Virus record (IMG/VR): IMGVR_UViG_2695420403_000013
Location: 1-26,336 of that record
Source of the DNA: a virus
Lineage: Duplodnaviria > Heunggongvirae > Uroviricota > Caudoviricetes
DNA length: 26,336 bases
Strand: one strand, 5' to 3'
A program made the position numbers and the translations under genes. The notes under the pieces are model-generated. The model saw only the letters and a list, made by a program, of their open reading frames with translations. It did no database searches and was not told where the DNA came from. Shown here piece by piece: positions 14,861-25,202 of the stretch (positions are counted from its first letter, which is position 1; each line of letters begins with the position of its first letter).

Positions 14861-16543
14861 TTACAAATACCGTCTAACACGTATTTTATTAATCTTCGAC
14901 TCATTTCCAATTCTTATCAAAGCATTTCTCGCTTTTTCTCCGATGCGTTTCATTCTATCTGAACCATTGCTATACCCACCAAACTTAAGAGCAGTGGCTA
15001 TTATTGAATCACCACCTTCAAGAATGACTTTTTTAAATAAATCATAGTAGTCATCCTCTGAGGCAGCATCCAATATTTCCTCGTGCCTATCAGACCAACC
15101 ATTCTGACTTGATAATTTTATTAGAACATCCTTTATAGAACCATCCAGATTTAAAGTAATAGAATAATCTTGGATTTTTGACTTTAACTCAGCATCTTTT
15201 ATAGGATGAACATTCATGTAAATAGATTGGACATATTCCTTAAGAGCATCATTGCCGTAATTAATAAATTTACTTATTAATTCACTTGCTTTAATATTTT
15301 CATCTAAATCTCTATACAGTCCGACAACACTATCCAAGTCACTTGGAGTTACATACTCTATCCCACCAACCACCGCTTGATATAGATTATCAACGACCTG
15401 ATTTCGGTTATCTTCAAATGAATTATAGAAAAGCTTCCATGCTTCAAACAGTGAACCTCGCTTACTATCACGGATAAGTTCATCATTTCTTAGACTTACT
15501 TGCCTTTGAAAATTGTTCATATCAATATATCCATGCTTAACCATGTCTATAAGGACTTCATCAAGTTCGTTTGTTTTTTTATAACCATATATAAGCAAAG
15601 TATTAAGCCATTTTTTTCCTTTTCCATCCTCTTTTTCATCACGCACATAGATATTTCTCATATTTCTAATATACTCCAATGATGGTACATCTCCATCTGG
15701 AGTAAATGCGTAATGACTCCAACAATACAAAGTTAAGGAGCGTGCGACTTCATTTGCAATTTTATCAAAATTAATGTTAATAGCAGGTAACAAGGCTAGC
15801 AAAAACCGCTCTATTTTTTTCAGTATCCGAATATTTTTAATACCTAGAGAAATGGAGTATTTGCTTAATAATTTATGAACATCAGAATTATTTTTATATG
15901 CTATAGCTGCACATTCTTCTGGCGTAGGGTTATAGGTAATCTCTCTATCAATAACCTTTTCTTTATAAGTGGAGTAATCATCCATACCACTTGTCCCATT
16001 ATTAAGTAAAAGAACCACCTTACAATTTTTTTGTTCTTTCAATAAAGAAACCAACCCTAAGACATCTTTCACTTCTAAATTTTTACCACGTCTTTCTAAG
16101 TCATCTATGACTACAATAACATTAGTAATTGACATAAATGACATTGACTCAAGTGTCGTAGCGAAATTTTTCACAACAGGTGTTTCTTTTAACAAACGAG
16201 CGGTCTTTCTAGTGCAGGATTCAAGAAGTCCCTTTGTATTTTGGGTTGCTGTTTTTAAATTAGGTTTATTTCCAATAAAATCTTTTGTAATTGTATTTTC
16301 AAAGATGGAATATTTTAATGCGTCCAATGAATTAACACCAAAAAGAGAGACGTAACTATATCTATTAAATGCAATCTTATTCTTATTTTCCTTTAAGAAA
16401 GTATTCCAAGTATAGGTTTTCCCAATCCCCCATTCACCCTGAATAGCCATTACCTCAGGTTCTGCAGATGAAATAAAGTCTGACAACTGTTCTTTAATAT
16501 AGTCCAATGACATGCACATTCTCCGAGATAGATAGTCATCCAT
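14861..16543 (-). CDS. Cargo gene: KAP-family P-loop NTPase (PifA-like), candidate anti-phage/exclusion protein
   Basis: Walker A QGEWGIGKT (Trp-containing G-x-W-G-x-G-K-T typical of KAP NTPases) and Walker B VVIDDLERR. AT-rich. Probable true start is ATG 16511-16513 (GGAG ribosome-binding site), downstream of a TATAAT at 16544-16549. Confidence 0.6.
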   Translation of the reverse strand: MDDYLSRRMCMSLDYIKEQLSDFISSAEPEVMAIQGEWGIGKTYTWNTFLKENKNKIAFNRYSYVSLFGVNSLDALKYSIFENTITKDFIGNKPNLKTATQNTKGLLESCTRKTARLLKETPVVKNFATTLESMSFMSITNVIVVIDDLERRGKNLEVKDVLGLVSLLKEQKNCKVVLLLNNGTSGMDDYSTYKEKVIDREITYNPTPEECAAIAYKNNSDVHKLLSKYSISLGIKNIRILKKIERFLLALLPAININFDKIANEVARSLTLYCWSHYAFTPDGDVPSLEYIRNMRNIYVRDEKEDGKGKKWLNTLLIYGYKKTNELDEVLIDMVKHGYIDMNNFQRQVSLRNDELIRDSKRGSLFEAWKLFYNSFEDNRNQVVDNLYQAVVGGIEYVTPSDLDSVVGLYRDLDENIKASELISKFINYGNDALKEYVQSIYMNVHPIKDAELKSKIQDYSITLNLDGSIKDVLIKLSSQNGWSDRHEEILDAASEDDYYDLFKKVILEGGDSIIATALKFGGYSNGSDRMKRIGEKARNALIRIGNESKINKIRVRRYL

Positions 16544-16580: not shown

Positions 16581-16599
16581 CTCGTATCCCCGCCACGCC
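16581..16599 (-). other. Candidate cos (cohesive-end) site
   Basis: The - strand reads GGCGTGGCGGGGAtacgag; the first 13 nt match the P2/186 cohesive-end sequence as I recall it (GGCG(A/T)GGCGGGGAAAGCA). Orientation relative to Q is as in P2. Confidence 0.45.
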
Positions 16600-16640: not shown

Positions 16641-16668
16641 ACGCAAAAGCCCGCCAGTTCTGGCGGGC
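16641..16668 (-). terminator. Rho-independent terminator acting on the - strand
   Basis: GCCCGCCAG-ttc-TGGCGGGC; on the - strand it is followed by TTTTGCGT. Confidence 0.5.
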
Positions 16669-16941
16669 CTTAGCAAAAACGATCCTCAAACGATCATGCA
16701 ATCTCATGCAGCATAGACATGCACAGACGAGTAAAGCGAATCGGACTTTACGCAAGGTGAACTCCTCAGCGGGCATAATCAGTATGTCGGAAGATCTCTA
16801 AAAATGAATAATTCGGTTAACAGGTATGCTTACAAAAGCATATATTTGATTAAAAATCATGTAAGGGGGAGGATCTCAAACTGAATCGCCACGGGTTTTA
16901 CAAATTTCGATAGTCTCTCTAACGTTTCGGCTGAGGTCAAA

Positions 16942-17367
16942 ATGAAAAGCTTTTACGTATTAATTTTAATTCTGGTTGCAAGCTTTGTTAGCGTCCCAGT
17001 TCAGGCGGTAACAGCTAAAAACTATGAGAAAGGAACTAAAGCTCAACAGAAATCAATATCTTACCTTTCATGTGCATTCTATGGCAGTAGCACACAATTA
17101 GATCCTAGCTACACGGAGCAAGTACCTACAGCCGATATCAAGATATTACAGAAAGCAGCTTACCACGCTTACAACGATGCGCTCTCATACTTTGGCTATG
17201 AGGAACCAGATCACGAACAACGCATAATTGATTATGCTGAATTTGTGGCGTCGCAAGAAGCTGTGTTATGGGATAAGCCGGGAATGAATGGAAAGCAGGT
17301 AACACTAATTGCTCGTTCTCTCTACAATGAGAGTAACTGTAACTTGTTACTGGACTCAATTAAGTAG
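16942..17367 (+). CDS. Cargo gene: small secreted/periplasmic protein, unknown function
   Basis: 141 aa. Signal peptide MKSFYVLILILVASFVSVPVQA, GAGG ribosome-binding site, AT-rich. Confidence 0.6.
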   Translation: MKSFYVLILILVASFVSVPVQAVTAKNYEKGTKAQQKSISYLSCAFYGSSTQLDPSYTEQVPTADIKILQKAAYHAYNDALSYFGYEEPDHEQRIIDYAEFVASQEAVLWDKPGMNGKQVTLIARSLYNESNCNLLLDSIK

Positions 17368-17526
17368 GAAAAAGATGGTATTTTGCCCGTAGTTTCAACC
17401 TTAATCTCCGAACCTGTCGCAGAACGGGCGTTCACTCATCAAATAAACGCCACACCTAACGCCTCACTGTACTCGTTGTTCAACCTTGCTGACGCCAGAA
17501 CCAAGTTCAGACGCCAGCAACTTTTC

Positions 17527-17760
17527 TTAATGCAGCCAGCTGTCGTCTTCCCACACCTTCTGCATAATCTTCATCACTTGTTTTCTTTCTTCGTCCAGTT
17601 GCAGTCCGGTCAGTTCCACACCGTTAGAGCTACCTTTGCGGATGCGAATTACCGTTTTGGGATACAGGGGGCGCAGATTGCGGTAAAGCTCGGATTCAAG
17701 GGCGTCCAGGGTAGACTGGCTAATCTTCTGCTCTTTATCGATCATTATTTCAATGCGCAT
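17527..17760 (-). CDS. DinI-like protein (second gene of the Tum-like operon)
   Basis: Start at ATG 17758-17760 after GGTGA. MRIEIMIDKEQKIS...LDALESELYRNL...KIMQKVWEDDSWLH resembles DinI (MRIEV...). Confidence 0.65.
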   Translation of the reverse strand: MRIEIMIDKEQKISQSTLDALESELYRNLRPLYPKTVIRIRKGSSNGVELTGLQLDEERKQVMKIMQKVWEDDSWLH

Positions 17761-17770
17761 AAAGGTCACC

Positions 17771-17959
17771 TCAGCTGATGACATCCATTGAGCGGTTGTA
17801 TTCGTGGGTTCTGATTTTTGCCATGAGTTCATCTGTCAGTTCAGAAACCCACTGCAAAGCCAGCCCCTTCTCTTCATCACTACACTCACTAGCCGCTACA
17901 AGCTTAAGAAAAAAATCAATGCGCTGGAGCTTCAAAGACTCCAAAAAATAGTCCTGCAT
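17771..17959 (-). CDS. Small protein (62 aa), first gene of the LexA-controlled operon; possible antirepressor (Tum N-terminal-like)
   Basis: ATG 17957-17959 preceded by AGGAGG. The longer listed ORF (start 18061) would run through the LexA box and is rejected. Confidence 0.4.
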   Translation of the reverse strand: MQDYFLESLKLQRIDFFLKLVAASECSDEEKGLALQWVSELTDELMAKIRTHEYNRSMDVIS

Positions 17960-18002
17960 CTTTCCTCCTATGACACCACAAGCAATACTGTATACATAAC
18001 CA

Positions 18003-18018
18003 CTGTTTATATTTACAG
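18003..18018 (-). promoter_or_regulatory. LexA operator (SOS box)
   Basis: CTGTttatatttACAG, a perfect CTGT-N8-ACAG with AT-rich spacer, about 40 bp upstream of the 17959 start. A half-site CTGT sits at 17988-17991. Confidence 0.6.
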
Positions 18019-18112
18019 TATATAATAATCTTACTGATGTAAAACGTTTTTTTACGTTCATTAGCCTGATATGCCTGGTATTATTAAGAGCACGAATTGT
18101 TAACCCGCGTAA

Positions 18113-20527
18113 TTAATACAGGTTTCGCCACTTATCATCTTCCTGCAAACGCTGGTTCCGATAGAAGATACGCAGGCCTGCTCCTGACGGAATACTGCCG
18201 CCGCGAAGGAGTAAATCGACCTCTTTCTCGCTGCCATTAAATCCTCTGGACTTCAGTTCATAGACGAGCTGCTGTCGCTGATGGTCTGTAATTCGCTGTT
18301 TGTAGTCTTTACGCCGTTTCGGTTTCACCAGGCGTAACCTTGCAGCCAGTTCCCGGCGCTCTTTTTTGCTCATACTGTGCAGGTAATCGTGCAACTCCTT
18401 GTCATCCATGCGGGTAATGTCCGTCCTAGTATCCCCATCAGCTGATTTGTCTTTCCCTTGTTGGTTCAAATTTTCAGCAAGGGGACAGTTATTGCCACGA
18501 GTCCAAGGGGCGCAAGCGCCCTGGTCGGCTGCCGCCTCCTGAACGTCAACGGCTTTACGAACCATTTTCCACTTCACTGCATGAGTGCAGATCTTGCCCT
18601 CTGCAATGGGTGACCAGATGCCATAAATACGAATACCGTGATCGCCATAGGCGGTCGGCTCTTCATTGATTTCATAAGCGGTTCTGATCAAGTGATATTT
18701 GCGAGGAACCAGCACGCCGCCCTGCCTCATAATGTAGGTGGCAAAACAGCCAGCATCAGCAGCAGCCAGGATGGCATCAAGGCGCGGGTTATCCAGTACC
18801 GGCGCACCTGCTTTTTTGTCACCCTGCTGCCTTGCCGCCTGACCAGCCAACAACCGCAGTTCACGGTAAGCCTGACGCCCTGGAATACCAAAGAAGCGGA
18901 ATTGCTGAACACGATGCAGAGACGCCCAGGCATTAACGTATTCAGCGTTATCACGCAGGGATTTACCCGTTTCCTTGCTGATCTCGCCAGCCAGACCACG
19001 CCCGTCAATGTTCTTACTGATGTATTTCGCGATGTAGCTTGTTGGCGTACCTTTGCGCGGGTTAATCAACTCAGACTTAAAGCGTGGTCCTGTGTTATTA
19101 CCCAGCTCCTCGCGGTCTTCACGAATGGCAAACTTACGCAACAAAGCAGTAATGGCGCGGCGATCTTTTTTGCGCATAAAACACAACAGGTGCCAGTGAA
19201 CTGTACCGTCATGATGCGGCTCAGCCACCCGCACGCCATACCAGCGCAATCCGGCTTTGTGCATCGCCTTACGAAATGCAGCAAACATGCCGACCAGATA
19301 ATCACTGCTTTGTCTTACCGTCGCATTTGTCCAGGTCGGGTTGGGCCTGCCGTTATTTAGCGTGGAATGGAAACGTGACGGACAGGTGATGGTGTAGAAA
19401 ACGGCGCAGTCACCGCGCATTTCCGCGATAAGCTCCAGACCTTTAACACATGCCATCATCTCATTGCGGCGATGCGCCGGGTTGCTACTACTGGCGTTTA
19501 CCACATCTTCCATATCCAGCGTGTCGCCGTCTTCGTTCACCAGTTCATGAGAACGGAAAAACTCCAGCGACTTACGGCGCTGCTCACGTTTATGCATCAC
19601 GGCTTCATAGCTGACATAGGGAGATGCTTTTTTGCTGACCAGGCAGACAGCACGCAACTGCTCTTCCCGCCATTCACAACGCATCTTCCACAATTTCCGA
19701 TACCACCAGTCGGCGCACAACATACGCGCCAGCGAACCCGGAATGAGTTCATAGGGCACGGGTTTACGGCGGTTTCTTTTCCGGCGGAGTTGCTCAAACG
19801 CAGGCGGTATGACATCCAGTCGCAGGGTTTCTGCTGCCACCTTTTCCCATGTCTTGCGGATTTCTTCTGGCTTAACATCATCGGTGGCATACAAATCACC
19901 ACAAGCGGCATCAAGACACATACTCATATGCGCAGCGACAAGAGTAGACAGGCGTTTCACCTGATCCTGACTCATTTCAGGCAAGATCAGCAGGCCGTCC
20001 AGCCCTTCATGGCTTGCCATAAAGCGAAAAGAAGTGGATAGCTGACTGTCGCGTACATGCTCCAGTCGTTCCAGACATGGCTTAATCGTCTCACGCAAAT
20101 AGCGGGAATAAGCCTTTGGCCTGCCCAGGCTGCTGAAGTATTCAATACGTTGCATCAGCGGCTTGCTGATATGGGAAGGCTGGGCGTTAACGTCCGCCAG
20201 TATGACCATGTCCGGATTAAAACGCTGCTGCTCATGCGCCAGCTTTGCCCGGCTAATGAGCTTATCCTGCTCCATTTCGCGCTGGACAGGATCACGTGAT
20301 TCATTAAAAAAATAACGCTCCCAGACCTGATCACTCAGTGCCTCGCGGCGCAACTGTTCCTGCTCGTTATCGGCAGCGTACAGAGTGATCTGGTTTGAAA
20401 GCGCAGAAACCGGCGCAACTTCCGCCGGGTCCAGATAAGGGTTAATGGCCTTTTTCGGACTGTTCCATGAGAACGCTGCGGCAGCCTCGTTAAAGCCGCA
20501 GCAGTTGCTCATATCGGCATGGCTCAT
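18113..20527 (-). CDS. A: Replication initiation protein (gpA-like rolling-circle endonuclease)
   Basis: 804 aa, size and position as P2/186 A. ATG overlaps the Dam stop (ATGA). Confidence 0.85.
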
Positions 20528-23270: not shown

Positions 23271-24215
23271 ATGTCAACTCAAAAATTCACATTTCGCCAT
23301 ATGAATGACGATATGAAAGCCGTTGTCATACAGAATCGCGGTGGTCAGAAAGTAATTGAGCGGATACTCATGGCTTATGGCTTCAAGTCACGCCAGGCAT
23401 TCTGTAACCATCTAGGTATTTCCCAAAGCACGATGGCTAACAGATATGCCCGCGATACATTTCCTGCAGATTGGGTAGTTATCTGCTCAATGGAAACAGG
23501 AGCATCAATTAAATGGCTAGCATTTGGTTCAGATGATGACGAGCAAATGCCATCCCCTTCACCAGAACAACATGTTGAAACACACTCCGAAGATGGTTCT
23601 TATCATGATGTTCACTATAAACAACAAAAGTTCGACAATGAAAACTCCGTTGATTTTTCTCGAGGTGGCAAGGAAGCAATAGAACGAATTGTTAAGGCTT
23701 ACGGTTATAAGACGCGCCAAGCCTTAGCTGATCACTTAGGTATTTCAAAAAGCACATTAGCCACAAGATATATGCGTGATGTCTTTCCTTCAGACTGGAT
23801 AATTAAGTGCGCTCTAGAAACGGGTACTTCACTAACGTGGCTAACTACTGGTAAAGGCCCAAAGTTTGACGATGCAAGAAATGATGTAATTGCTATTACA
23901 CGCAAAAAAATCACTGATGGGAATCTATTTGAGTCAGATTTCTATATGCTTGATAAAGCATTAATACCAGACTCAATCCAATTACCACTGATTGTCAGTA
24001 CCCCAAAAAAAACATACCTATGTGATCAGTCATTTGATGAAATTACAGATGGTAAATGGATTGTTGAAATAGAAGGAAAAGTGAGCATTCGAACCCTAAC
24101 TAGGATACCTGTAGGAAGATTAAAAATCTCAGACAATTATTTATCGTTTGAATGTAATATTTCAGACATTGATGTTATTGCTAAATGCAAATTTTTGCTT
24201 ATAGAAGAATTATAA
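23271..24215 (+). CDS. cI: CI-type immunity repressor with a tandemly duplicated N-terminal HTH domain
   Basis: 314 aa. Two ~70-aa repeats (IERILMAYGFKSRQAFCNHLGISQSTMANRY...METGASIKWL and IERIVKAYGYKTRQALADHLGISKSTLATRY...LETGTSLTWL), each resembling the 186 CI N-domain, plus a CI-like C-terminal domain. Confidence 0.7.
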   Translation: MSTQKFTFRHMNDDMKAVVIQNRGGQKVIERILMAYGFKSRQAFCNHLGISQSTMANRYARDTFPADWVVICSMETGASIKWLAFGSDDDEQMPSPSPEQHVETHSEDGSYHDVHYKQQKFDNENSVDFSRGGKEAIERIVKAYGYKTRQALADHLGISKSTLATRYMRDVFPSDWIIKCALETGTSLTWLTTGKGPKFDDARNDVIAITRKKITDGNLFESDFYMLDKALIPDSIQLPLIVSTPKKTYLCDQSFDEITDGKWIVEIEGKVSIRTLTRIPVGRLKISDNYLSFECNISDIDVIAKCKFLLIEEL

Positions 24216-24227
24216 GAGGATATTGGA

Positions 24228-25202
24228 ATGGCCGGTTCCAATTGGAAAGATAATAGTGAAGAATATATCTCTAGAATCATTAAACTAGAGGAATTAAAAT
24301 CATATTTATCCGATAGTGTCTATAATGATTTGAAAAAACTATTGAATTCTTTAAAGTTTAATGAATTCGATGTGCTTTTTGATGTTTACAGTAAATATTT
24401 TTCTAAAAAATATAATTGTGAGCACATTAACCCCGAACGCACATCCTTAAAAAATAGTGAGATAGATGATTACATTTCAAAAATCACTAAATTAGAGCAT
24501 AAAGTGCGTGAATTGCAAAAAATCCATAACTCTCATTCAGAGCAAATGGAAAAGTTGAATGAAAAATTATTAAATGAAATGGAAAGTAAAAAAAAACTAG
24601 CATCACAGCTAGATTTCCAACACGCCAAAAACAATGAGCTAAAGCTTCAAAACCAAGAACTTTCAAGCAAAATCCAACAAAATAAAATTGACGAAAAAGT
24701 TCCTAAATATGTGCAGGGCGTCAAAGAAAAACTACAGCAGGATGATAAAGATTTCACTGCAATGTCTTACAATTGGGCGATAGCCGGAATACTATTTTCA
24801 TTATTATCTATAAGTGCCGCCTTTTTAACATTTTTTTATAAAATAGATATAAAAGATACTACCCCCATTGAACTTTTTTATTATTTCACTAGGGGCTTGC
24901 TTGGGGTTGCATTACTTTCTTGGCTTTCTTATTTTTGTTTAAACAATTCAAAAAAATACACACATGAAGCAATCATAAGAAAAGACAGACAACATGCTCT
25001 AATGTTTGGTGAAGTCTTCTTACAAATTTATGGTTCAACTGCGACAAAACAAGATGCTATTGATGTGTTTAAAGATTGGAACATGTCTGCTAATTCTGCA
25101 TTCGCAGATAAAATGCAGCCACCTCCAAATTTATTTAACATTCTAGGTACACTTGTAGATAAAAAATCAGCAGCAAATGATGACAGCATTACCAAAAAGT
25201 GA
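24228..25202 (+). CDS. Cargo gene in the lysogenic operon: coiled-coil plus two-TM membrane protein, unknown function
   Basis: 324 aa, AT-rich. Starts 13 nt after the cI stop with an AGAGGA ribosome-binding site. N-terminal ~170 aa heptad-rich and charged; helices WAIAGILFSLLSISAAFLTFFY and LLGVALLSWLSYFCL. Confidence 0.6.
   Translation: MAGSNWKDNSEEYISRIIKLEELKSYLSDSVYNDLKKLLNSLKFNEFDVLFDVYSKYFSKKYNCEHINPERTSLKNSEIDDYISKITKLEHKVRELQKIHNSHSEQMEKLNEKLLNEMESKKKLASQLDFQHAKNNELKLQNQELSSKIQQNKIDEKVPKYVQGVKEKLQQDDKDFTAMSYNWAIAGILFSLLSISAAFLTFFYKIDIKDTTPIELFYYFTRGLLGVALLSWLSYFCLNNSKKYTHEAIIRKDRQHALMFGEVFLQIYGSTATKQDAIDVFKDWNMSANSAFADKMQPPPNLFNILGTLVDKKSAANDDSITKK

What the first reader, a model, noticed from the sequence alone, without database searches (positions are those of the whole stretch)
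17527..18030. LexA-box-controlled two-gene module: small ORF plus DinI-like protein
A perfect CTGT-N8-ACAG box lies just upstream of a 62-aa ORF followed 10 nt later by a DinI-like ORF. In 186 the SOS-induced antirepressor Tum is, as I recall, a single protein with a DinI-like C-terminal part; here the two parts are separate cistrons. This places the prophage in the SOS-inducible 186-like group and raises the question of which product acts on CI.
Basis: partly seen in the sequence, partly recalled or inferred. Interest (0 to 1): 0.45.

Follow-up and report, generated by a model that had tools for sequence, protein, structure and literature searches.

The report
Known split Tum SOS antirepressor module
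This is the ordinary, already described DNA-damage switch of a Fels-2/186-like prophage: a LexA-repressed promoter driving a small antirepressor gene (tumA type) and a separate DinI-like gene (tumB type).

Summary
On the minus strand, a perfect LexA box (core 18003-18018) overlaps a 186-p95-like promoter. It is followed by a 62-aa ORF (17771-17959). Ten nucleotides later comes a 77-aa DinI-family ORF (17527-17760).

- ORF2 aligns to residues 71-145 of 186 Tum (41% identity) and is 78% identical to PSP3 TumB.
- A profile of the ORF1 family matches 186 Tum residues 6-48 (34.7 bits).
- The PSP3 record annotates separate tumA and tumB genes. Lemire et al. 2011, citing Bunny et al. 2002, state that Fels-2 and PSP3 have tum split in two, with the upstream gene carrying the antirepressor activity.
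- In the E. coli HS prophage DuoHS (ORF1 61/62 identical, ORF2 77/77 identical), the published "delta-tum" primers map exactly onto the ORF1 start and stop codons. That deletion, like lexA(Ind-), abolishes mitomycin C induction.

It is absent, or present only as a truncated remnant, next to ORF1 homologues in about 13 of 31 loci from other species.

The module occurs in 1126 of 5426 complete E. coli genomes.

Verdict: already known, low interest.

The parts
18038..18043 (-). Putative -35 hexamer TTTACA of the SOS promoter (counterpart of 186 p95)
   Evidence: Read from the sequence. TTTAC(A) is conserved in the alignment of 30 related upstream regions. The spacing of 17 nt to TACTGT parallels the annotated 186 p95 (TTCACA-N18-TACTGT). 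The simple consensus scan did not call it because the -10 matches only 3 of 6 positions. Inferred, not mapped.
18001..18020 (-). LexA box 1, TACTGTAAATATAAACAGTG (core CTGT-N8-ACAG at 18003-18018). Its first six bases double as the putative -10.
   Evidence: Conserved upstream of the ORF1 homologue in 30 of 31 species loci and in 186, PSP3, ENT90 and Yersinia phages. The 186 record annotates the same overlap of LexA site and -10.
17986..18005 (-). Second, degenerate LexA-like box CAGTGGTTATGTATACAGTA (GTG-N10-CAG), overlapping box 1 by 5 nt
   Evidence: One perfect half-site plus one half with a core mismatch. The block GGATATATATACAGT is conserved in most related loci although the flanking sequence varies. 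Its function is inferred only.
17964..17969 (-). Shine-Dalgarno sequence AGGAGG of ORF1
   Evidence: Conserved as GGAGGGAA in the related loci.
17771..17959 (-). ORF1, 62 aa: tumA-type antirepressor, homologous to the N-terminal part of 186 Tum
   Evidence: It is 61/62 identical to the DuoHS gene whose precise deletion abolishes mitomycin C induction. AF2 predicts a two-helix hairpin with pLDDT 85.7. It has no Pfam or NCBIfam family and falls in PHROG 698, 'unknown function'.
17766..17772 (-). Shine-Dalgarno sequence GAGGTGA of ORF2, overlapping the ORF1 stop codon
17527..17760 (-). ORF2, 77 aa: DinI-family protein (tumB type), counterpart of 186 Tum residues 71-145
   Evidence: Pfam DinI 6.6e-23. 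41% identical to the Tum C-terminus, 29% to E. coli DinI, 78% to PSP3 TumB, 100% to DuoHS. PHROG 189, 'RecA filament binding protein DinI'.
17486..17520 (-). Stable RNA hairpin 6 nt after the ORF2 stop, with no U tract. Possible partial terminator or transcript stabiliser, at the position of 186 t95a.
   Evidence: -21 kcal/mol, z -2.2. Not called by the terminator scan. The comparison with t95a rests. Inferred.
23271..24215 (+). 186-type CI repressor, 314 aa, with two tandem HTH domains plus the CI C-terminal domain. It is the presumed target of ORF1.
   Evidence: Pfam PF07022 (two stretches) and PF16452. 49% identical to DuoHS CI and 34% to 186 CI over the single-HTH length. That ORF1 binds it is inferred from 186 Tum, annotated 'inhibits CI DNA binding', and was not tested.

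Best explanation
This is the SOS-induction operon of a Fels-2/186-like P2-family prophage, in its split (tumA/tumB) form. In a healthy lysogen, host LexA binds the box that overlaps the -10 of a promoter just downstream of replication gene A, and probably also a second degenerate overlapping box. This keeps the two-gene transcript off. DNA damage activates RecA, LexA cleaves itself, and the operon is transcribed. The 62-aa helical-hairpin protein ORF1 (TumA type, homologous to the N-terminal part of 186 Tum) then inactivates the 186-type CI immunity repressor by protein-protein binding rather than cleavage. The early lytic promoter is released and the prophage enters lytic growth. The co-translated 77-aa DinI-like protein ORF2 (TumB type) is not the inducer. 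By analogy with E. coli DinI and with the 186 'truncated Tum' products, it most likely modulates RecA filament activity and so tunes the strength or timing of the SOS signal. Shown here by computation: the sequence anatomy, the homologies, and the conservation of the LexA box. Shown by published experiment on a near-identical module (DuoHS): the requirement for the ORF1 homologue and for cleavable LexA in induction. Inferred: direct ORF1-CI binding, the role of the second box, the exact promoter hexamers, and the function of ORF2.
For: Anatomy. DinI family membership. ORF2 equals Tum 71-145. The ORF1-family HMM hits Tum 6-48: with a bridging Yersinia tum protein. 186 p95 has the same overlap of LexA site and -10, tum is annotated 'expression repressed by LexA; inhibits CI DNA binding', and the truncated DinI-like products 'modulate SOS induction'. 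PSP3 tumA is annotated 'similar to 5' end 186 tum; UV induction of prophage' and tumB 'similar to dinI and 3' end of 186 tum'. Fels-2 has the same two genes. Lemire 2011 (PMC3121763) says Fels-2 and PSP3 have tum split, with the upstream gene carrying the antirepressor activity. The Phollow paper (PMC12055606) shows that delta-tum and lexA(Ind-) abolish mitomycin C lysis of DuoHS. The deletion primers NHR24 and NHR28 map on the ORF1 ATG and TGA in the window with 0 and 1 mismatch, leaving the DinI gene intact. DuoHS proteins are 61/62 and 77/77 identical to the window's. The LexA box is conserved in 30 of 31 loci, whereas no DinI homologue follows ORF1 in 11 loci and only a truncated remnant does in 2 more. 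CI, CII and gpA of 186 type are present.
Against: No experiment has been done on this exact prophage. ORF1 has no BLASTP-level similarity to 186 Tum or to PSP3 TumA, so homology rests on a profile and a bridging sequence. The CI here differs markedly from that of DuoHS: 49% identity and an extra N-terminal HTH domain. Effective antirepression of this particular CI is therefore assumed. Direct binding of a TumA-type protein to CI is documented, in what I could read, only for full-length 186 Tum and by a personal communication for PSP3. Bunny et al. 2002 itself was not available to me.
Confidence: 0.9

Rival explanations
1. The DinI-like protein ORF2 is the real inducer, for example by acting on RecA or on CI, and ORF1 is only a leader peptide or an accessory.
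For: In 186 the DinI-like part is covalently part of Tum. ORF2 is well conserved: 78% identical to PSP3 TumB and 100% to DuoHS.
Against: The DuoHS deletion removes only the ORF1 homologue, leaves the DinI gene and its ribosome-binding site intact, and abolishes induction. No DinI homologue follows ORF1 in 11 of 31 related loci, and only a truncated remnant does in 2 more, while ORF1 and its LexA box are always kept. ENT90 and two Yersinia phages carry only the tumA-type gene. The PSP3 antirepressor activity is assigned to the upstream gene.
Confidence: 0.03
2. ORF1 triggers induction but not by binding CI. It may act on another prophage or host factor such as Apl/Cox, CII or a protease, which would explain why it is far more conserved than CI.
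For: ORF1 homologues average 85% identity to the window's ORF1 across species. The neighbouring CI, compared with the DuoHS CI, averages 67% in the N-terminal domain and 36% in the C-terminal domain, with no correlation to ORF1 identity. The same ORF1 (98-100% identical) sits with a 189-aa CI in DuoHS and with a 314-aa double-HTH CI here and in Klebsiella phage 4LV2017.
Against: ORF1 is homologous to the part of 186 Tum whose annotated activity is inhibition of CI DNA binding. The moderately conserved HTH domain offers a plausible common target. No other candidate target is indicated by any result.
Confidence: 0.06
3. The split is a sequencing or assembly frameshift in an originally fused Tum-length gene.
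For: None beyond the existence of the fused form in 186.
Against: The same two ORFs, with their 10-nt gap, frame change and second Shine-Dalgarno sequence, recur in Fels-2, DuoHS and 66 phage records. The region is found in 1126 complete E. coli genomes, 36 records at 99% identity or more. Across a 50%-clustered library, relatives of ORF1 are nearly all stand-alone proteins of 55-75 aa.
Confidence: 0.01

Closest known systems
E. coli HS prophage DuoHS 'tum' plus DinI-like gene (ECHS_RS04495/04500); Salmonella Fels-2 STM2728/STM2726.1
   Same: Same two genes, order, sizes and 10-11-nt gap. The same LexA box precedes ORF1 in Fels-2 (TACTGTAAATATAAACAGTG). ORF1 is 98% identical to both. ORF2 is 100% identical to both the DuoHS and the Fels-2 protein. 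Same position after gene A. DuoHS induction needs this tum gene and cleavable LexA.
   Different: The immunity repressor differs: the DuoHS CI is 189 aa and 49% identical, whereas the window's CI is 314 aa with a duplicated HTH domain. The cargo genes downstream also differ.
Phage PSP3 tumA/tumB
   Same: A split Tum: a 60-aa tumA followed by a 77-aa DinI-like tumB behind a LexA box (TACTGTATAAATATACAGTA) after gene A. TumB is 78% identical to ORF2.
   Different: PSP3 TumA shows no detectable similarity to ORF1. In PSP3 the two genes are in the same frame, separated by a stop codon plus one further codon. Here they are in different frames with a 10-nt spacer.
Coliphage 186 Tum (SOS operon p95-tum-orf97)
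   Same: A LexA box overlaps the -10 of a promoter after gene A. An N-terminal antirepressor module is homologous to ORF1. A DinI-like module is 41% identical to ORF2. The DinI-like part is also made on its own, from an internal GTG at residue 71.
   Different: In 186 the two modules are fused in one 146-aa protein. 186 has a single annotated LexA site. orf97 follows tum in 186 and is absent here.
E. coli DinI (RecA filament modulator)
   Same: ORF2 is a full-length DinI-family protein (PF06183; 29% identical over 79 aligned columns, with an acidic C-terminal helix).
   Different: ORF2 scores 42.7 bits against the NCBIfam DinI equivalog, whose cut-off is 111 bits, so it is a phage paralogue and not DinI itself. 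RecA binding is untested.
Gifsy-1/-2 dinI-gfoA/gftA LexA-controlled antirepressor operons
   Same: A LexA-repressed operon that pairs a DinI homologue with a small antirepressor acting on a non-cleavable repressor.
   Different: The gene order is reversed (dinI first). The antirepressors and repressors belong to unrelated families, and the phages are lambdoid.

Membership tests
186-type LexA-controlled Tum antirepressor system | LexA operator overlapping the promoter of the antirepressor gene | tested here: met
   A perfect-core box lies at 18001-18020 and overlaps the putative -10. It is conserved in 30 of 31 loci. The layout matches the annotated 186 p95. Actual LexA binding cannot be tested with these tools.
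186-type LexA-controlled Tum antirepressor system | Antirepressor module homologous to the N-terminal part of 186 Tum | tested here: met
   The ORF1-family HMM matches Tum residues 6-48 at 34.7 bits, E 7.6e-8 at Z=1e5. Pairwise BLASTP was negative. A Yersinia tum protein bridges the two.
186-type LexA-controlled Tum antirepressor system | Single 146-aa polypeptide with a fused DinI-like C-terminal half | tested here: not met
   There are two cistrons in different frames with a 10-nt spacer. The module therefore belongs to the split tumA/tumB variant, not the fused 186 form.
186-type LexA-controlled Tum antirepressor system | Partner repressor of the 186 CI family (no RecA-type self-cleavage domain) | tested here: met
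   PF07022 plus PF16452 in the ORF at 23271-24215. It is 34% identical to 186 CI.
186-type LexA-controlled Tum antirepressor system | Gene product required for SOS induction and binds CI | not testable with these tools
   The requirement was shown experimentally for the 98%-identical DuoHS gene. CI binding is inferred from 186.
Split tumA/tumB arrangement (PSP3, Fels-2) | Small upstream antirepressor gene immediately followed by a separate DinI-like gene in one LexA-controlled unit after gene A | tested here: met
   TumB is 78% identical to ORF2. Fels-2 ORF1 is 98% identical.
Split tumA/tumB arrangement (PSP3, Fels-2) | Sequence similarity of ORF1 to PSP3 TumA itself | tested here: not met
   No BLASTP alignment was found and the HMM score is 3.8 bits. 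ORF1 is of the Fels-2/DuoHS sequence type, not the PSP3 type.
DinI family (Pfam PF06183) | Full-length match to the DinI domain above the gathering threshold | tested here: met
   81.3 bits against a cut-off of 24.2, over residues 14-76. PHROG 189.
DinI family (Pfam PF06183) | Equivalence to host DinI (NCBIfam equivalog NF007893) | tested here: not met
   42.7 bits against a cut-off of 111. ORF2 is a phage paralogue.
DinI family (Pfam PF06183) | Binding to or modulation of the RecA filament | not testable with these tools
   Inferred from family membership only.

The most novel reading that the evidence does not exclude
One highly conserved TumA-type hairpin protein (71-100% identical across enterobacterial genera) may act as a broad-specificity antirepressor. 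It would recognise the moderately conserved HTH domain of many heteroimmune 186-type CI repressors, including the tandem-HTH 314-aa form found here. If so, SOS induction of one P2-like prophage could cross-induce heteroimmune relatives in the same cell, and a second degenerate LexA box would provide extra-tight control. The evidence does not exclude this: ORF1 is much more conserved than CI, and it is uncorrelated with either CI domain.
Probability: 0.3. Interest if true: 0.4.

Novelty: already known. Interest (0 to 1): 0.1.

Why it matters
It matters little as a discovery. The module is the textbook 186-type SOS induction pathway in its split form, which is published for PSP3 and Fels-2 and has been tested genetically in E. 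coli HS.

Its practical value is for annotation. The 62-aa gene is labelled 'hypothetical protein', or wrongly 'levan regulatory protein', in RefSeq, Pfam, NCBIfam and PHROGs. Yet it is the gene that decides whether a prophage carried by about a fifth of complete E. coli genomes is induced by DNA-damaging antibiotics. Naming it tumA-type antirepressor would predict that such prophages are SOS-inducible.

Tried and rejected
- BLASTP of ORF1 against 186 Tum and against PSP3 TumA found no alignment. Homology to Tum was recovered only with a family HMM. PSP3 TumA stayed undetectable.
- The simple promoter and terminator scan found nothing in 17300-18200. The promoter was placed by analogy with 186 p95 and by conservation.
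- AF2 gave a confident two-helix hairpin. Foldseek against the PDB gave only generic hairpins, such as the ExoVII small subunit and designed coils, with no E-value below 0.7. This says nothing about mechanism.
- Rfam at gathering thresholds found no RNA family anywhere in the window.
- A search for the P2 cos 19-mer recalled from memory found no match at up to 3 mismatches. A 186-like GGCGTGGCGGGGA was then seen by eye.
- A literature search for 'TumA/TumB' as words returned only unrelated papers.
- Bunny et al. 2002 and Christie & Calendar 2016 are not held in the library.
- The frameshift-artefact idea and the 'DinI is the inducer' idea were considered and rejected (see rival explanations).

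Full report
**1. What is in the sequence**

The feature lies on the minus strand. Reading 5' to 3' on that strand:
- The 804-aa gpA-type replication gene ends at 18113 (Pfam Phage_GPA 1.3e-127).
- A 153-nt intergenic region follows. It contains TTTACA (18043-18038), a 17-nt spacer, and TACTGTAAATATAAACAGTG (18020-18001).
- AGGAGG (17969-17964) precedes a 62-aa ORF, ORF1 (17959-17771).
- Ten nucleotides, ggtgaccttt, separate ORF1 from the next gene. A GAGGTGA Shine-Dalgarno sequence overlaps the ORF1 stop codon.
- A 77-aa ORF, ORF2, follows (17760-17527).
- The two ORFs are in different reading frames.

The CTGT-N8-ACAG core occurs once in the window (18003-18018). On its own it is not statistically striking, because 24 of 100 shuffles contain at least one such match. 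Its position and conservation are what make it convincing (section 3).

**2. What the two proteins are**

*ORF2*
- It is a full-length DinI-family protein (PF06183, 81 bits, E 6.6e-23; PHROG 189).
- It is 29% identical to E. coli DinI.
- It is below the NCBIfam equivalog cut-off (42.7 bits against 111), so it is a phage paralogue rather than DinI itself.
- It aligns without gaps to residues 71-145 of 186 Tum (41% identity, E 3e-24). The alignment begins exactly at the internal GTG from which the 186 record annotates a 'truncated Tum' that 'modulates SOS induction'.
- It is 78% identical to PSP3 TumB.

*ORF1*
- It has no Pfam or NCBIfam family and falls in PHROG 698, 'unknown function'.
- BLASTP against 186 Tum finds nothing.
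- A full HMMER scan of 1.84 billion cluster representatives found only 66 relatives, nearly all stand-alone proteins of 55-75 aa.
- An HMM built from 29 of them plus ORF1 matches 186 Tum residues 6-48 at 34.7 bits (E 7.6e-8 with Z set to 1e5). It also matches the tum-type proteins of ENT90 and two Yersinia phages.
- ORF1 aligns directly to a Yersinia phage 'tum protein' (35% over 34 aa, E 9e-8). That protein is itself a tblastn hit of the 186 Tum N-terminus.
- The shared core is ...E..hQRI-h...L.....C...-K.LA..W..EL....
- ORF1 is therefore a diverged homologue of the N-terminal, non-DinI part of Tum.
- AF2 predicts a two-helix hairpin (helices 2-22 and 28-61, pLDDT 85.7). Foldseek finds nothing specific.

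**3. The control region**

- The annotated 186 p95 promoter is TTCACA-N18-TACTGT, and the LexA site starts at the -10. The window has the same layout (TTTACA-N17-TACTGT).
- A strong LexA box lies 21-44 nt before the start codon in 186, PSP3, ENT90, two Yersinia phages and Fels-2, even though their flanking sequences are unrelated.
- I retrieved 33 loci from other species. A CTG-N10-CAG box lies 20-77 nt upstream of the ORF1 homologue in 30 of the 31 where the start could be placed. The exception is a contig with only 53 nt of upstream sequence.
- An alignment of these upstream regions shows four conserved blocks separated by variable sequence: the -35-like TTTAC(A), TATACTGT, box 1, and a following block GGATATATATACAGT.
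- That last block forms a second, degenerate box (GTG-N10-CAG; window 18005-17986) overlapping box 1 by 5 nt. I read it as a probable second, weaker LexA site. This is an inference.
- After ORF2 there is a stable hairpin (-21 kcal/mol) without a U tract, at the position of the 186 partial terminator t95a.

**4. What is already known**

- The PSP3 record annotates tumA ('similar to 5' end 186 tum; UV induction of prophage') and tumB ('similar to dinI and 3' end of 186 tum').
- Fels-2 carries the same pair as the window. ORF1 is 98% identical, and the downstream gene is annotated as similar to PSP3 TumB.
- Lemire et al. 2011 (PMC3121763), citing Bunny et al. [quoted passage not shown] - The Phollow paper (PMC12055606, 2025) shows that the P2-like prophage DuoHS of E. 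coli HS is no longer induced by mitomycin C in a delta-tum or a lexA(Ind-) background.
- I located DuoHS in NC_009800. Its 62-aa and 77-aa genes are 61/62 and 77/77 identical to ORF1 and ORF2.
- The published deletion primers NHR24 and NHR28 read ...GGAGGAAAG-ATG-TGA-GGTGACTTTTATGCGCATTG. They map onto the window exactly at the ORF1 ATG (17957-17979, 0 mismatches) and at the ORF1 TGA plus the ORF2 start (17751-17773, 1 mismatch).
- The gene called 'tum' in that experiment is therefore the ORF1 homologue alone, and the DinI gene was left in place.

**5. Additional comparative evidence**

- In the 31 species loci, the DinI-like cistron follows 9-12 nt after ORF1 in about 18. No DinI homologue follows ORF1 in 11 loci, and only a truncated remnant does in 2 more. 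ORF1 and its LexA box are always kept.
- ENT90 and two Yersinia phages also carry only the tumA-type gene.
- The DinI-like gene is therefore an accessory.
- The 691-bp region is present in 1126 of 5426 complete E. coli genomes, 36 records at 99% identity or more. There it is annotated 'DinI-like family protein | hypothetical protein | replication endonuclease'. The split is not an artefact, and the module is very common.

**6. Mechanism**

LexA represses the promoter. SOS-induced LexA cleavage then allows synthesis of ORF1, which inactivates the 186-type CI non-proteolytically, and of ORF2, which probably modulates RecA. The requirement for ORF1 and for cleavable LexA is experimental, in DuoHS. 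ORF1-CI contact is inferred from 186 Tum, annotated 'inhibits CI DNA binding'.

One observation complicates a simple lock-and-key picture.
- ORF1 homologues average 85% identity to the window's ORF1 across species.
- The adjacent CI, compared with the DuoHS CI, averages 67% identity in the HTH domain and 36% in the C-terminal domain.
- Neither domain's identity correlates with ORF1 identity.
- The same ORF1 sits beside a 189-aa CI in DuoHS and beside a 314-aa CI here.

If ORF1 binds CI, the HTH domain is the likelier contact, and cross-reactivity between heteroimmune prophages is possible. This is the only part with any potential novelty, and it is speculative.

**7. Verdict**

The feature is an already known system: the split tumA/tumB form of the 186-type SOS antirepressor operon, of the Fels-2/DuoHS sequence type. 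Interest is low. The main practical point is that ORF1 remains unannotated, or misnamed 'levan regulatory protein', in the current databases.

Noticed in passing
window 23271-24215 (+): The CI immunity repressor is 314 aa and carries two tandem Phage_CI_repr HTH domains (about residues 20-86 and 127-198) before the CI C-terminal domain. 186 CI is 192 aa and DuoHS CI is 189 aa, each with one HTH domain. In the 33 species loci, every CI homologue found (27 loci) was of single-HTH length. A full-length relative at 57% identity exists in the Klebsiella phage 4LV2017 group, whose ORF1 is 100% identical to the window's. What a duplicated DNA-binding domain means for operator recognition or antirepression is unknown.
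   Followed up: partly
33 genome loci L008-L040 compared with the window: The TumA-type protein is much more conserved (mean 85% identity) than the CI next to it (HTH domain 67%, C-terminal domain 36%), with no correlation. This suggests either a conserved contact on the HTH domain or broad antirepressor specificity across immunity types.
   Followed up: partly
window 17986-18005 (-) and the aligned loci: A second, degenerate LexA-like box (GTG-N10-CAG) overlaps the perfect box by 5 nt. It is conserved in most related prophages but is not annotated in 186.
   Followed up: partly
window 14861-16543 (-): A 560-aa KAP-family P-loop NTPase (Pfam PF07693, 2.3e-9) matches the PADLOC candidate defence family PDC-S49 (8e-25). 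It lies between the cos-like site and the portal gene, in a variable cargo position of P2-like phages. A homologue occupies the same position in locus L033.
   Followed up: partly
window about 16581-16599 (-) and 16641-16670 (-): GGCGTGGCGGGGATACGAG resembles the 186/P2 cohesive-end sequence, so it is the probable cos site. Just upstream on the same strand is a strong intrinsic terminator, GCCCGCCAGAACTGGCGGGCTTTT (-27.6 kcal/mol, z -4.4). This block is conserved in many related loci, where it shows up as a spurious small ORF 'MKSHDRLRIVFAEARQNWRAFAYVMQVHEN'.
   Followed up: partly
window 16942-17367 (+): A 141-aa ORF with an apparent N-terminal signal peptide, convergent with the tum operon. 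It belongs to PHROG 7437 (unknown function) and has no Pfam, NCBIfam or PADLOC match. It is probably a secreted or periplasmic cargo protein.
   Followed up: no
window 24228-25202 (+): A 324-aa ORF, apparently coiled-coil with hydrophobic (possibly membrane-spanning) segments, lies between cI and the integrase gene (PHROG 2628, unknown function). 186 has no gene there. It may be a lysogeny-expressed exclusion or defence gene.
   Followed up: no
proteins P0147, P0152, P0155, P0164, P0169, P0172, P0177 and P0181; Yersinia phage vB_YenM_324: A subset of distant TumA-family proteins ends in a conserved glycine-rich tail of the form ...K(N/S)PQxGGxxSGGGxLQ. This tail is absent from the window's ORF1 and from 186 Tum. 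Its function is unknown.
   Followed up: no
database names for ORF1 homologues: Some records call the 62-aa protein 'levan regulatory (domain) protein'. This name has no support in any family search here and looks like a propagated mis-annotation.
   Followed up: no
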